Shown in pieces: positions 28,201 through 31,200 of a stretch of 64,000 nt of DNA (position 1 is its first letter; every line of letters begins with the position of its first letter). Made by a program: the position numbers. The DNA comes from Escherichia coli. Its GTDB lineage: Bacteria; Pseudomonadota; Gammaproteobacteria; Enterobacterales; Enterobacteriaceae. Location of the stretch: assembly GCF_013122565.1 (NCBI RefSeq), contig NZ_CP053258.1; one strand, given 5' to 3'.

Positions 28201-31200
28201 TGATCACCATCGCCCGCCAGATTGGCGTGGGCTTTAGTAACCTGGTGGAGCTGGAGATTTTCCTCGCGACCCAGGCCTTGCTGGGAATTGGCCTGGGCAT
28301 TGCCATCAGTCGCCAGCAACATCTGGCGCTAAACCTGCACCATTACCGACAACGGCTGGAGGCCGAGCTGGCAGCGCGGCGGGCATTGGCGGAAAAGTTG
28401 ATCCACACCGAGGAGGACACGCGAAAAAACCTGGCGCGAGAGCTGCACGACGAAATCGGTCAGAACATCACCGCCATTCAGATCCAGTCGCAACTGGTGA
28501 AGCGGGCGCGTGATCCGGCGCAAATTCAATCCGCAGCCAGCCAAATCAATGAGCTCGCCCGCCGCATTCATCTCTCCACCCGCCAATTGCTGCGCCAGTT
28601 GCGGCCTCCCGCGCTTGATGAACTGACATTTCGCGAAGCGTTGTTGCATCTGATTAATGAATTTGCCTTTGGTGAACGCGGCATTCATTGCCAGTTTGCC
28701 TATCAACTGAACTCCACACCAGAAAACGAAACGGTGCGCTTTACCTTGTATCGGTTATTGCAGGAGTTGCTCAATAACGTCTGTAAACACGCCGAAGCCA
28801 GCGAAGTGACGATTATCCTGCGCCAGCAGGGAGAGGTATTGCATCTGGAGGTCAGCGACAACGGTGTGGGGATCGCCAGCGGGAAAATGGCCGGATTTGG
28901 CATTCAGGGGATGCGTGAGCGCGTCAGCGCCCTGGGCGGCGACTTAACGCTCGAAAAACAGCACGGCACGCGGGTAATTGTTAACTTGCCCACATTTTTG
29001 CAACAAATCGCCGGATAACCAGGAAAAAGTCTTAGGTATCCCGGATTTTCTCTCATCCCCTTTCACTTTCATTTTCATATAGTCAGCAACATGGAGACAA
29101 CCATGCACGCGCGTTCAGCGAGAGAAATTAATCAATGCTACCGGACATTACGTCCGCGATTGCTGATGTGCATGATTATTGGCTACGCCGCATTTTATCT
29201 GACGCGAAAAAGCGTGAATTACGTCCTTCCGGCGCTACAAACCGACCTCGGACTGGATAAAGGCGACATTGGCCTGCTGGGTTCGCTGTTTTATCTCAGC
29301 TACGGATTGTCGAAATTTACCGCCGGACTGTGGCATGACAGCCACGGACAACGCGGTTTTATGGGCGTCGGCTTGTTCGCCACCGGGTTATTGAACGTGG
29401 TGTTTGCCTTTGGCGAATCACTTACGCTTCTGCTTGTGGTCTGGACACTGAACGGTTTTTTTCAGGGCTGGGGATGGCCACCGTGTGCCCGCTTGCTGAC
29501 CCACTGGTACTCACGCAATGAGCGCGGTTTCTGGTGGGGCTGCTGGAATATGTCGATCAACATTGGCGGAGCGATTATTCCGCTGATTAGCGCCTTTGCC
29601 GCCCACTGGTGGGGCTGGCAGGCCGCGATGCTGACACCGGGGATAATCAGCATGGCATTAGGGATCTGGTTAACGCTACAACTCAAAGGCACGCCCCAGG
29701 AAGAGGGATTACCGACAGTTGGTCACTGGCGTCACGATCCGCTGGAGTTACGTCAGGAACAACAAAGTCCGCCGATGGGGCTGTGGCAAATGTTGCGCAC
29801 CACCATGCTGCAAAATCCGCTGATCTGGCTACTGGGCGTCTCTTATGTACTGGTTTATGTGATCCGGATTGCGCTTAACGACTGGGGCAATATCTGGCTG
29901 ACGGAAAGCCACGGTGTCAACCTGCTCAGCGCCAACGCCACGGTAATGCTGTTTGAAGTGGGCGGCTTACTCGGCGCGTTATTTGCCGGATGGGGATCGG
30001 ATCTGCTGTTTAGCGGGCAACGAGCGCCAATGATTTTGCTGTTCACGTTGGGGTTGATGGTGTCAGTCGCCGCACTGTGGCTGGCACCGGTTCATCACTA
30101 CGCTCTGCTGGCAGTGTGCTTTTTTACCGTGGGCTTTTTCGTCTTTGGCCCACAAATGCTGATTGGACTTGCGGCGGTGGAGTGTGGGCACAAAGCTGCG
30201 GCGGGTTCAATCACCGGATTTCTCGGCCTGTTCGCTTACCTTGGCGCGGCGCTGGCAGGCTGGCCGCTGTCGCTGGTCATCGAACGCTACGGCTGGCCGG
30301 GAATGTTCAGTTTACTCTCGGTCGCCGCAGTACTTATGGGTTTACTGCTGATGCCGTTACTGATGGCGGGCATCACCACCACTCACGCTCGAAGGATAAA
30401 ACAATGAAAATGACCTTTACCTCTACTCTGATTGCTTCTGCCGTTGCGCTGGCGACTTTAACGGGTGCCGCGCAGGCAAAAGGCCGGCTGGTGGTCTATT
30501 GCAGCGCCACCAATGAAATGTGTGAGGCCGAAACCAAAGCGTTTGGCGAGAAATATGATGTAAAAACCTCGTTTATCCGCAACGGTTCCGGAAGCACCCT
30601 GGCAAAAGTCGATGCTGAAAAGAAAAACCCCCAGGCTGACGTCTGGTACGGCGGCACTTTAGACCCGCAATCGCAGGCTGGCGAGATGGGCCTGCTACAG
30701 GCGTATAAATCCCCTACCCTTGAGCAGATCATGGAGAAATTCCGCGATCCGGCAAAAGTGAAAGGGAATCTGTCCTCTGCCGTTTATGTGGGGATCCTCG
30801 GTTTTGGCGTAAACACCGATCGTCTGAAAGAGAAAAACCTGCCGGTGCCGAAGTGCTGGAAAGATCTCACCAAACCGGAATATAAAGGCGAAATTCAAAT
30901 TGCCGATCCGCAAAGTTCCGGTACTGCCTACACCGCCCTGGCTACTTTTGCGCAGCTGTGGGGGGAAGATCAGGCCTTTGATTATCTAAAACAACTGAAC
31001 GCCAACGTCTCTCAGTACACCAAATCAGGCATAGCCCCGGCACGTAACGCCGCCCGTGGCGAAACGGCGATTGGTATTGGCTTCCTGCATGACTACTCGC
31101 TGGAAAAAGAACAGGGCGCGCCGCTGGAGTTGATTTCCCCGTGTGAAGGTACGGGCTACGAAATTGGCGGCGTCAGCATTCTGAAAGGCGCGCGCAACCT

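What the first reader, a model, noticed from the sequence alone, without database searches (positions are those of the whole stretch)
30390..30410. ATGA start/stop overlap couples the UhpC-like sensor to the ABC binding protein
The stop codon of the UhpC-like gene (TGA 30405-30407) overlaps the ATG of the AfuA-like gene (30404-30406). That implies co-transcription and translational coupling of a sensor with the transporter it presumably regulates. The annotated ORF-track start for this gene (30077) lies inside the upstream gene and is unlikely to be used.
Basis: seen in the sequence. Interest (0 to 1): 0.35.

Follow-up and report, generated by a model that had tools for sequence, protein, structure and literature searches.

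The report
Sensor gene overlaps sugar-phosphate transporter gene
The four-base ATGA overlap is real but ordinary, and it sits inside a widespread E. coli gene block in which a glucose-6-phosphate-type sensor gene and a sugar-phosphate importer appear to be transcribed together from a promoter built like the classical uhpT promoter.

Summary
TGA 30405-30407 of the UhpC-like gene overlaps ATG 30404-30406 of the AfuA-like gene, and RefSeq annotates the same overlap. This is E. coli island OI-20: fusR, fusK, z0461 (UhpC-like), afuA, afuB, afuC.

The afuA start at 30404 is well supported. ATG-AAA is invariant in 79 of 79 enterobacterial species and follows a near-invariant AAGG Shine-Dalgarno. The ATG at 30410 is not conserved, and GTG 30077 is excluded.

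The overlap itself is commonplace: 6 of 34 same-strand junctions nearby have one. It is also not conserved. The junction ranges from -4 to +160 nt between species.

Co-transcription is strongly supported but not shown. Strict translational coupling is unproven, and the ribosome-binding site is not sequestered.

The more interesting result is upstream. The fusK-uhpC' spacer (29019-29083) carries a conserved uhpT-type promoter: a 17-bp palindrome, a TCTCAT box and a -10 hexamer, at the same spacings as real uhpT promoters. This predicts a regulated uhpC'-afuABC operon with the co-sensor inside its own regulon. That prediction sits uneasily with the published fucose-sensing account of FusKR.

The parts
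26790..26817 (+). P1: sigma-70-type promoter-like site upstream of fusR (TTGCCA, 16 nt, CATGAT)
   Evidence: Found by the promoter scan. The -35 and the CATnAT -10 are conserved across 14 genera, while sequence further upstream is not. Function is inferred.
26848..27477 (+). fusR (Z0463): UhpA-like NarL-family response regulator
   Evidence: Pfam Response_reg plus GerE. Best NCBIfam hit is UhpA at 193 bits, below the 258 cutoff. It is 48% identical to E. coli UhpA by BLASTP, with an identical KTVHVHRAN recognition-helix stretch, and 50% in a global alignment.
27477..29018 (+). fusK (Z0462): UhpB-like MASE1 histidine kinase; 1-nt overlap with fusR
   Evidence: Pfam MASE1, HisKA_3 and HATPase_c. 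Best NCBIfam hit is UhpB at 377 bits, below the 408 cutoff. It is 38% identical to UhpB.
29019..29035 (+). 17-bp palindrome-like element CCAGGAAAAAGTCTTAG directly after the fusK stop; candidate FusR/UhpA-type strong binding site, centred about -63 from the predicted transcription start
   Evidence: It is a perfect palindrome (CCAGGAATAATTCCTGG or CTAGGAATTATTCCTAG) in 14 fetched genome loci and in Pectobacterium L088. It is the only match with 2 or fewer mismatches in the window. The same element sits at the same distance in Vibrio and Plesiomonas uhpT promoters.
29051..29056 (+). Invariant TCTCAT box, 27 nt upstream of the -10 hexamer (about -39 to -34)
   Evidence: Invariant in alignment A1. 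The 27-nt spacing holds in 72 of 73 loci. TCTCAG or TCTCAT sits at the same offset in E. coli, Enterobacter, Vibrio and Plesiomonas uhpT promoters.
29078..29083 (+). -10-like hexamer TATAGT of promoter P2, with no recognisable -35
   Evidence: The TAnAnT positions are invariant or near-invariant across 23 genera. The absence of a -35 fits an activator-dependent promoter. No transcription start has been mapped.
29093..29096 (+). GGAG Shine-Dalgarno of the uhpC-like gene
   Evidence: GGAG is invariant and lies 5-7 nt before a conserved ATG.
29103..30407 (+). uhpC' (Z0461): UhpC-type MFS protein. The probable true start is ATG 29103; the ORF-track start 29091 is E. coli-specific
   Evidence: NCBIfam UhpC 587.7 bits against a 564 cutoff, and UhpT only 213.8 against 497. 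It is 52.5% identical to UhpC and 30.8% to UhpT. ATG 29103 is conserved and 29091 is not. PGAP uses 29103 in L001 and 29091 in L002.
30392..30396 (+). AAGGA Shine-Dalgarno of afuA, lying inside the uhpC' coding tail
   Evidence: A at -12/-11 and G at -10/-9 are present in 69-76 of 79 species. There is a 7-nt A-rich spacer. No significant local RNA structure was predicted.
30404..30407 (+). ATGA stop/start overlap (afuA ATG 30404-30406, uhpC' TGA 30405-30407)
   Evidence: Present in 23 of 79 species-level loci.
30404..31435 (+). afuA: periplasmic sugar-phosphate binding protein; residues 1-24 form a predicted Sec signal peptide (MKMTFTSTLIASAVALATLTGAAQA|KG)
   Evidence: E = 1e-168 to A. pleuropneumoniae AfuA (4R72), aligning from residue 25. 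H229, D230 and E253 align with the ligand-binding H205, D206 and E229. ATG-AAA is invariant in 79 of 79 loci.
31436..31503 (+). afuA-afuB spacer with a GC-rich, REP-like hairpin
   Evidence: Fold energy -22.8 kcal/mol, z = -1.46. There is a weak sub-threshold naRNA4 (REP-derived) hit on the minus strand. Any role is inferred only.
31504..33582 (+). afuB: fused double permease
   Evidence: PGAP coordinates. Pfam BPD_transp_1 matched twice.
33594..34640 (+). afuC: ABC ATPase
   Evidence: PGAP coordinates. Pfam ABC_tran plus TOBE_2. NF008513 at 696 bits.

Best explanation
The window carries E. coli island OI-20, a six-gene Uhp-like module: fusR (uhpA-like), fusK (uhpB-like), z0461 (uhpC-like), then afuA, afuB and afuC, which encode a hexose/heptose-phosphate ABC importer.

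I propose two transcription signals. P1 (26790-26817) is a conventional sigma-70 promoter for fusR-fusK. P2 (29019-29083) is a uhpT-type, response-regulator-dependent promoter in the 72-nt fusK-uhpC' spacer. P2 would drive one mRNA covering uhpC', afuA, afuB and afuC. Read-through from P1 probably supplies a basal level.

By analogy with UhpC, UhpB and UhpA, the UhpC-like protein senses an external sugar phosphate and signals to FusK. FusR-P then binds the palindrome centred near -63 and the box near -35 and switches P2 on. The importer and its own co-sensor would therefore be induced together, giving positive feedback.

Within that mRNA, afuA starts at ATG 30404. Ribosomes finishing uhpC' at UGA 30405-30407 are positioned to reinitiate there. 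However, afuA also has a strong, conserved and unstructured ribosome-binding site. Most AfuA synthesis is therefore probably by independent initiation, as expected for a binding protein needed in excess over a sensor.

The 4-nt overlap is one of several interchangeable short junctions. What selection preserves is the ribosome-binding site plus ATG-AAA and the tight linkage, not the overlap.

Shown here: the sequence features, their conservation and the family memberships. Inferred: promoter activity, FusR binding, the inducing ligand and the degree of translational coupling.
For: Anatomy and annotation come, and family assignments.

- **Block conservation.** The six-gene order is kept in essentially all of the roughly 80 Enterobacterales species loci with enough flank, and in Moellerella and Pectobacterium.
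- **afuA start.** ATG-AAA is invariant in 79 of 79 loci, AAGG is near-invariant at -12 to -9, and the second ATG is not conserved. In most species the ATG is the first start codon after an in-frame stop. Crystallised AfuA proteins align from residue 25.
- **No internal signals.** There are no promoter-like or terminator-like sites on the + strand between 28991 and 31525, and third-position variation is flat along uhpC'.
- **P2.** In 73 of 78 loci the order is stop codon, palindrome, 32-33 nt, TCTCAT, 27 nt, TAnAnT, 15-21 nt, GGAG, 5-7 nt, ATG. Bona fide uhpT promoters of V. vulnificus and Plesiomonas have CTAGGAAnnnnTCCTAG, 33 nt, TCTCAT, 27 nt and a -10. E. coli and Enterobacter PuhpT have TCTCAG at the same 27-nt offset and CTAAGAAATTTTCC[A/C]GG at the palindrome position.
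- **Regulator.** FusR and UhpA share an identical KTVHVHRAN recognition stretch. UhpA is reported to bind a strong upstream site and a weak downstream site in PuhpT (PMC4790336).
- **Published expression data.** FusKR-dependent regulation of z0461 is reported, which implies a FusR-responsive promoter there (PMC6199705). Z0461, afuA, afuB, afuC, fusK and fusR are all induced in bovine gut contents, at comparable read levels.
- **AfuABC function.** It is an experimentally shown G6P/F6P/S7P importer, including the C. rodentium OI-20 copy (PMC4546632).
Against: - No transcription start, transcript map or binding assay was available, so P2 rests on comparative sequence alone.
- As relayed by PMC6199705 and PMC11644481, the literature says FusK senses fucose, FusR represses z0461, and z0461 aids fucose import. 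All three differ from the activator and sugar-phosphate model. The original paper (Pacheco 2012) could not be read.
- FusR and FusK score below NCBIfam's UhpA and UhpB equivalog cutoffs, so they are paralogues and may have diverged in signal.
- In E. coli the right arm of the palindrome is degenerate, with 3 of 7 arm positions mismatched.
- The numbering of the '-64 element' of PuhpT is from memory, because the Kadner-laboratory papers were not held.
- In 4 of 5 E. coli overlapping pairs tested by Huber et al. 2019 (PMC6728339), translation was strictly coupled. Coupling here could therefore be tighter than I assume.
Confidence: 0.7

Rival explanations
1. Strict translational coupling. AfuA synthesis would depend on ribosomes terminating uhpC' at the ATGA (termination-reinitiation), fixing the ratio of sensor to binding protein.
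For: The ATGA geometry is present with a Shine-Dalgarno inside the upstream gene. Four of five E. coli overlapping pairs tested were strictly coupled, and the Shine-Dalgarno usually contributed (PMC6728339).
Against: Only 23 of 79 species have the overlap. Another 47 have gaps of 4 to 160 nt, yet the same ribosome-binding site. No stable structure masks the site (z = 0.38), whereas Huber et al. found such structures in three of the pairs they tested. A periplasmic binding protein is normally needed in excess over membrane partners, let alone a sensor (general knowledge). The afuA RNA-seq signal per kb is about twice that of uhpC', though this is mRNA, not protein.
Confidence: 0.2
2. Independent transcription. 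afuABC would have its own promoter embedded in the 3' part of uhpC', so the overlap says nothing about co-regulation.
For: Xenorhabdus bovienii carries afuABC alone, without the three regulatory genes, so the transporter can be expressed without them. Yersinia has a 157-160 nt spacer that could hold a promoter.
Against: No sigma-70-like site on the + strand inside uhpC'. No region of reduced synonymous variation in the last 300 nt of uhpC'. The uhpC' to afuA order is invariant. The conserved promoter-like block lies upstream of uhpC' instead.
Confidence: 0.08
3. The published model holds. Z0461 would be a working fucose or hexose transporter rather than a co-sensor. FusK would sense fucose directly, and FusR-P would repress P2. 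The linkage to afuABC would be co-repression of two uptake systems.
For: Statements citing Pacheco 2012: FusKR represses z0461 and the fuc genes, and deleting z0461 reduces growth on fucose (PMC6199705; PMC11644481). UhpC-type proteins retain the MFS transporter fold.
Against: Z0461 passes the UhpC-specific model and fails the transporter models. P2 copies the architecture of an activated promoter, PuhpT. z0461, the fus genes and the afu genes rise together in gut contents rather than inversely. Loss of a bifunctional kinase/phosphatase can mimic repression; this is inference from general two-component-system knowledge.
Confidence: 0.25
4. The conserved palindrome after fusK acts as an RNA hairpin, either a terminator or a stabiliser of the fusRK mRNA, and is not a protein-binding site.
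For: It lies immediately 3' of the stop codon. Its arms co-vary between species (CCAGG/CCTGG against CTAGG/CCTAG). In E. coli a larger hairpin followed by AUUUUCUCUC can be drawn.
Against: The fold is not better than shuffled sequence (z = -0.49). The outer stem is not conserved. No T-run follows the perfect palindromes. The same palindrome occurs upstream of uhpT in Vibrio and Plesiomonas, where no gene ends beside it. The fixed spacing to TCTCAT and the -10 argues for a DNA-level function.
Confidence: 0.1

Closest known systems
UhpABC-UhpT hexose-phosphate sensing and uptake system of E. coli
   Same: Same three regulatory gene types in the same order: NarL-family regulator, MASE1/HisKA_3 kinase and UhpC-type MFS protein. 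Identities to the E. coli proteins are 50%, 38% and 52.5%. The recognition-helix stretch is identical. The output promoter has the same palindrome, TCTCA box and -10 architecture. The substrate class of the output transporter is the same, hexose phosphates (PMC4546632).
   Different: The output is an ATP-driven ABC importer (AfuABC), not the UhpT antiporter. The regulated promoter lies upstream of the uhpC-like gene rather than downstream of it, so the co-sensor is inside the regulated operon and is joined to afuA by ATGA. In the classical locus a 137-nt promoter region separates uhpC from uhpT. FusR and FusK fall below the equivalog cutoffs. The published signal is fucose.
FusKR fucose-sensing two-component system and z0461 of EHEC O157:H7 (Pacheco et al. 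2012)
   Same: These are the same genes. L002 is an O157 genome with Z0461-Z0463 equivalents 99-100% identical to the window proteins, and the locus tags map.
   Different: The literature treats FusKR as a stand-alone fucose sensor that represses the LEE virulence island and z0461, and calls it O157-specific or acquired from E. faecalis. Here it is part of a six-gene module present in at least 80 Enterobacterales species and 518 of 5426 complete E. coli genomes. The module has a uhpT-type promoter feeding afuABC.
AfuABC sugar-phosphate ABC transporter (Sit et al. 2015, PDB 4R72-4R75)
   Same: AfuA matches 4R72 at E = 1e-168, and all three essential ligand residues are conserved. The afuA-afuB-afuC order is the same. 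The C. rodentium OI-20 orthologue was shown to transport G6P and F6P.
   Different: That paper did not address the regulation of the operon, its promoter or its junction with the uhpC-like gene. The A. pleuropneumoniae and Xenorhabdus versions lack the linked sensor genes; Xenorhabdus was checked, and A. pleuropneumoniae is from memory.
ATGA and TGATG overlapping gene pairs with termination-reinitiation coupling (Huber et al. 2019)
   Same: Co-directional 4-nt stop/start overlap with a Shine-Dalgarno inside the upstream gene.
   Different: No structure occludes the initiation region. The overlap is evolutionarily labile at this junction. Dependence on upstream translation is untested.

Membership tests
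Overlapping gene pair coupled by termination-reinitiation | Same-strand stop and start codons overlapping by 4 nt (ATGA) | tested here: met
Overlapping gene pair coupled by termination-reinitiation | Shine-Dalgarno motif inside the upstream ORF at functional spacing | tested here: met
   AAGGA at 30392-30396 with a 7-nt spacer, near-invariant across species.
Overlapping gene pair coupled by termination-reinitiation | Downstream translation depends on translation of the upstream gene | not testable with these tools
   Needs a reporter with a premature stop codon in uhpC'.
Overlapping gene pair coupled by termination-reinitiation | Local mRNA structure that blocks independent initiation (seen in several coupled E. 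coli pairs) | tested here: not met
   Fold of 30345-30445 gives z = 0.38, and the Shine-Dalgarno is unpaired in the centroid structure.
Overlapping gene pair coupled by termination-reinitiation | Overlap conserved among orthologous loci | tested here: not met
   Junction classes among 79 loci: -4 in 23, -1 in 9, 0-20 nt in 33, 21-60 nt in 12, more than 60 nt in 2.
Uhp-type three-component sugar-phosphate sensing system | UhpC-type MFS co-sensor | tested here: met
   NF008661 scores 587.7 bits against a 564 cutoff. The UhpT, GlpT and PgtP models all score below their cutoffs.
Uhp-type three-component sugar-phosphate sensing system | UhpB-type kinase (MASE1 + HisKA_3 + HATPase_c) and UhpA-type NarL-family regulator encoded just upstream, in A-B-C order | tested here: met
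   Domain architecture and gene order. The proteins score below the equivalog cutoffs (193 against 258, and 377 against 408), so they are paralogues, not orthologues.
Uhp-type three-component sugar-phosphate sensing system | Output promoter with a UhpA-type palindrome near -64, a proximal box and a -10, but no -35 | tested here: met
   By sequence and spacing only. Binding and activity were not tested.
Uhp-type three-component sugar-phosphate sensing system | Output gene is the UhpT antiporter, downstream of uhpC | tested here: not met
   The output is uhpC'-afuABC and no uhpT lies in the block.
Uhp-type three-component sugar-phosphate sensing system | Induction by external glucose-6-phosphate | not testable with these tools
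   The literature reports fucose as the FusK signal. No test with the UhpC-like partner is known to me.
AfuABC sugar-phosphate ABC importer | AfuA-type binding protein with the H205/D206/E229 sugar-coordinating residues | tested here: met
   H229, D230 and E253 of the precursor align with chain residues H207, D208 and E231 of 4R72, which are H205, D206 and E229 in the paper's numbering.
AfuABC sugar-phosphate ABC importer | Adjacent fused permease and ATPase genes | tested here: met
AfuABC sugar-phosphate ABC importer | Transport of G6P/F6P/S7P | not testable with these tools
   Shown experimentally for the A. pleuropneumoniae and C. rodentium systems (PMC4546632).

The most novel reading that the evidence does not exclude
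The FusKR 'fucose sensor' of EHEC would be the kinase and regulator of a Uhp-like sugar-phosphate sensing module. Its native job would be to switch on a uhpC'-afuABC operon from a uhpT-type promoter. The UhpC-like Z0461 would act as the ligand-sensing partner of FusK and be induced together with the importer it controls (positive feedback). The reported repression of z0461 and the fucose response would then be secondary effects or assay-dependent. The module would be an old, widely shared enterobacterial cassette rather than an O157-specific acquisition.
Probability: 0.4. Interest if true: 0.6.

Novelty: new variant of a known kind. Interest (0 to 1): 0.38.

Why it matters
The overlap by itself does not matter. 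It is the commonest kind of gene junction and is already annotated.

What matters is the context. OI-20 holds two separately published EHEC and Citrobacter colonisation factors: the FusKR 'fucose sensor' and the AfuABC sugar-phosphate importer. The sequence says they form one unit, a Uhp-like sensor whose uhpT-type promoter feeds the uhpC-like gene and afuABC as a single message.

If this is right, three things follow.
- Any FusKR effect on z0461 must extend to afuABC.
- The likely physiological signal is a sugar phosphate sensed through Z0461.
- The cassette is widespread in Enterobacterales rather than specific to O157.

It would also be a natural example of a two-component co-sensor placed inside its own regulon. 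All of this can be tested with standard reporter, footprinting and 5'-end mapping experiments.

Tried and rejected
- **Papers not held.** Pacheco 2012 and the Kadner-laboratory uhpT promoter papers could not be read. Statements about them come from citing papers or from memory and are marked as such.
- **Wrong locus fetched.** A guessed MG1655 coordinate range returned the mod/gal region. The classical uhp locus was obtained through a distant DNA search instead.
- **Corrected assumption about PuhpT.** I first took CCAGGTTTTGCCTGG, 48 nt from the -10, as the PuhpT counterpart of the island palindrome. Anchoring on the TCTCA box and adding Vibrio and Plesiomonas promoters showed that the true counterpart is CTAAGAAATTTTCCAGG, 11 nt further upstream.
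- **Rfam.** Nothing reached threshold anywhere in the module.
- **Protein search with AfuA.** The listed hits stayed within Enterobacterales at 79% identity or more. Linkage in Vibrionaceae and Pasteurellaceae afuA loci was therefore not assessed.
- **GTG 30077 as the afuA start: rejected.** It is not conserved. In many species an in-frame stop lies 1-5 codons upstream of the ATG. It would also bury the signal peptide 109 residues into the protein.
- **ATG 30410 as the start: rejected.** That codon is AAA, ACA, CTG, TTG or GTT in most species.
- **A second FusR-type palindrome upstream of fusR: not found**.
- **An RNA structure masking the afuA ribosome-binding site: not found**.
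Full report
**1. The observation**

The sequence at 30390-30412 reads CGAAGGATAAAACAATGAAAATG. The 438-codon ORF 29091..30407 ends with TGA at 30405-30407. The next gene's frame has ATG at 30404-30406, so the ATGA overlap is real. NCBI's pipeline annotates the same overlap in two independent RefSeq E. coli genomes, a baboon isolate 99.7% identical to the window and an O157 strain 98.8% identical.

The overlap is not rare. In the 50 kb around it, 6 of 34 co-directional gene junctions overlap by 4 nt. Huber et al. 2019 describe ATGA and TGATG overlaps as abundant throughout prokaryotes (PMC6728339).

**2. What the genes are**

The window carries an 8-kb insertion between tauA and frmR, present in 518 of 5426 complete E. 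coli genomes. It encodes six proteins.

- A NarL-family response regulator (26848-27477).
- A MASE1/HisKA_3 histidine kinase (27477-29018).
- An MFS protein that passes NCBIfam's UhpC model (587.7 bits against a cutoff of 564) and fails the UhpT, GlpT and PgtP models.
- A periplasmic binding protein.
- A fused double permease.
- An ABC ATPase.

Identities to the classical E. coli proteins are 50% (UhpA), 38% (UhpB) and 52.5% (UhpC), against 31% to UhpT.

The binding protein matches crystallised AfuA (4R72-4R75) at E = 1e-168. It keeps the three residues whose mutation abolishes sugar-phosphate binding.

The literature identifies the locus as island OI-20 of EHEC. The kinase and regulator are FusK and FusR (Z0462, Z0463), the MFS gene is z0461, and afuABC is a hexose/heptose-phosphate importer that promotes gut colonisation by C. 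rodentium (PMC4546632; PMC6199705).

**3. The afuA start codon**

I fetched 80 species-level loci from Enterobacterales.

- ATG-AAA at the position of 30404 is invariant in 79 of 79 usable loci.
- AAGG at -12 to -9 is nearly invariant.
- The second ATG (30410) is replaced by other codons in most species.
- In most species the conserved ATG is the first possible start after an in-frame stop, often only 1-5 codons upstream. This excludes a start equivalent to GTG 30077.
- Solved AfuA structures align from residue 25. That fits a 24-residue Sec signal peptide, MKMTFTSTLIASAVALATLTGAAQA.

**4. The junction itself**

The uhpC'-to-afuA gene order is constant, but the junction is not. The gap is -4 nt in 23 loci, -1 in 9, 0-20 in 33, 21-60 in 12, and about 160 in two Yersinia species.

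The conserved part of the UhpC-like protein ends with its last transmembrane helix. The tail beyond about residue 425 varies in sequence and length. In E. coli-type loci its last codons (Q-R-I-K-Q-stop) are simply the afuA ribosome-binding site read in the uhpC' frame. The overlap therefore looks like one outcome of stop-codon drift across a short spacer. Selection appears to act on the ribosome-binding site, the start codon and the linkage.

**5. Co-transcription**

- There is no space between the genes for a promoter or terminator.
- The consensus scan finds no promoter-like or terminator-like site on the + strand between 28991 and 31525.
- Third-position variation is flat along uhpC', with no conserved nucleotide block in its 3' part that might hide a promoter.
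- In a published EHEC RNA-seq data set, z0461, afuA, afuB, afuC, fusK and fusR are all induced in bovine gut contents, at similar read levels.

All of this is indirect, but it is consistent with a shared transcript.

**6. Translational coupling**

Coupling is possible, since a ribosome terminating at UGA sits on the AUG. Four of five E. coli overlapping pairs tested by Huber et al. were strictly coupled.

Three things argue against strict dependence here. The ribosome-binding site is not sequestered (z = 0.38). The site is conserved whether or not the genes overlap. A binding protein is normally made in excess over a membrane sensor. I rate strict coupling at about 0.2.

**7. Where the promoter is**

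In the classical system the UhpA-dependent promoter lies in the 137-nt uhpC-uhpT spacer. Here that spacer does not exist. The 72-nt fusK-uhpC' spacer, however, is strikingly conserved across 23 genera. In 73 of 78 loci it reads, in order:

- the fusK stop codon;
- a 17-bp palindrome-like element, perfect (CCAGGAATAATTCCTGG or CTAGGAATTATTCCTAG) in many genera and CCAGGAAAAAGTCTTAG in E. coli;
- TCTCAT, beginning 32-33 nt after the start of the palindrome;
- TAnAnT, beginning 27 nt after the start of TCTCAT;
- GGAG, beginning 15-21 nt after the start of TAnAnT;
- a spacer of 5-7 nt;
- ATG.

I then fetched genuine uhpT promoters. Those of V. vulnificus and Plesiomonas, where the gene order is uhpT-uhpABC, show the same arrangement: CTAGGAAnnnnTCCTAG, then TCTCAT beginning 33 nt after the start of the palindrome, then a -10 beginning 27 nt after the start of TCTCAT. 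E. coli and Enterobacter PuhpT have TCTCAG at the same 27-nt offset and CTAAGAAATTTTCC(A/C)GG at the palindrome position.

If the -10 is taken as -12 to -7, the palindrome is centred at -64 in PuhpT and at -63 in the island. This agrees with my recollection of the '-64 element', or strong UhpA site. It also agrees with the review statement that UhpA binds an upstream strong site and a downstream weak site (PMC4790336). FusR and UhpA share an identical KTVHVHRAN stretch in the DNA-recognition helix.

I conclude that 29019-29083 is a uhpT-type promoter (P2), and that the regulated unit is uhpC'-afuA-afuB-afuC. A separate, conventional promoter (P1: TTGCCA, 16 nt, CATGAT at 26790-26817) is conserved upstream of fusR.

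**8. Consequences and conflicts**

It can also be sharpened: the co-sensor lies inside the regulated operon, which predicts positive feedback.

The published account differs. It has FusK sensing fucose, FusR repressing z0461, and z0461 acting as a fucose transporter. I could not read the primary paper.

The reported regulation of z0461 by FusKR does at least agree that a FusR-responsive promoter lies upstream of z0461. Given the junction, any such regulation must extend to afuABC. Whether FusR activates or represses, and which ligand is sensed, cannot be settled by sequence.

No held paper links FusKR to afuABC regulation.

**9. Verdict**

The overlap is real, already annotated, ordinary, and not conserved as such. 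The start-codon call is correct. Co-transcription is very likely, and strict translational coupling is unproven.

The system is a variant of the Uhp circuit with an ABC importer as output and the promoter moved upstream of the co-sensor. This arrangement is apparently undescribed and easy to test.

Noticed in passing
window 29091-29105: The ORF-track start of the UhpC-like gene (ATG 29091) is probably wrong. Only E. coli has an ATG there. The invariant GGAG (29093-29096) followed 6 nt later by the conserved ATG 29103 points to 29103. PGAP itself is inconsistent, using 29103 in NZ_CP049204 and 29091 in the O157 genome NZ_CP032797.
   Followed up: yes
(window 26848-34640; loci L003-L082, L087, L088): Reviews describe FusKR as present only in O157:H7 and possibly acquired from E. 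faecalis. The six-gene block is in 518 of 5426 complete E. coli genomes. Carriers include a baboon isolate and a 4.64-Mb clinical strain whose genome is far smaller than the 5.5-Mb O157 genome fetched here. The block is also present in at least 80 Enterobacterales species (Citrobacter, Klebsiella, Enterobacter, Serratia, Rahnella, Erwinia, Yersinia, Pectobacterium, Moellerella and others).
   Followed up: partly
L013 4421-4688 (Raoultella planticola): The fusK-uhpC' spacer is 266 nt instead of about 72. An insertion of roughly 190 nt sits between the TCTCAT box and the -10. From memory, it resembles an ERIC/IRU repeat (...CCCCAGGAGCTTACATAAGTAAGTGACTGGGGTGAG...). It should disrupt the promoter spacing in that species.
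   Followed up: no
window 31436-31503: The afuA-afuB spacer folds into a GC-rich hairpin (-22.8 kcal/mol, z = -1.46) and gives a weak sub-threshold hit to the REP-derived naRNA4 family. A stabilising hairpin after the binding-protein gene would fit afuA read density being higher than that of afuB. The spacer length varies between species.
   Followed up: partly
L086 5582-6000 (Xenorhabdus bovienii): afuABC is present without fusR, fusK or the uhpC-like gene. It is preceded by a 420-nt AT-rich region with no palindrome or TCTCAT block, yet the TAAGGA ribosome-binding site and ATG-AAA are kept.
   Followed up: partly
L079 5841-6000 and L082 (Yersinia nurmii, Y. aldovae): The uhpC'-afuA spacer is 157-160 nt, long enough to hold its own promoter or a repeat element. 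Its content was not analysed beyond reading it.
   Followed up: no
L093 6664-10917 (Actinobacillus porcinus): Here uhpT is not next to uhpABC. It is next to a divergent sigma-54-type response regulator, a HisKA kinase and a periplasmic binding protein of the same SBP families as AfuA. This may be a different, binding-protein-based way of sensing sugar phosphate.
   Followed up: no
hits H3/H4 (E. coli K-12 MG1655): K-12, which lacks the island, has an 85.8%-identical copy of the 3' end of afuB plus afuC elsewhere in the genome. It is annotated as 'ABC transporter permease subunit' and 'fbpC', and may be a remnant of a second afu locus.
   Followed up: no
window 33594-34640: afuC is named 'ferric ABC transporter ATP-binding protein FbpC' by NCBIfam NF008513 and by PGAP. 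Experimental work shows that the system imports sugar phosphates, not iron (PMC4546632), so the name is out of date.
   Followed up: no
window 26758-26773: Upstream of the P1 -35 there is an invariant GTTA(C/A) (26758-26762) and an invariant CA (26771-26772) across 14 genera. This may be a binding site for a regulator of fusRK. The literature mentions repression by QseB and QseF.
   Followed up: no
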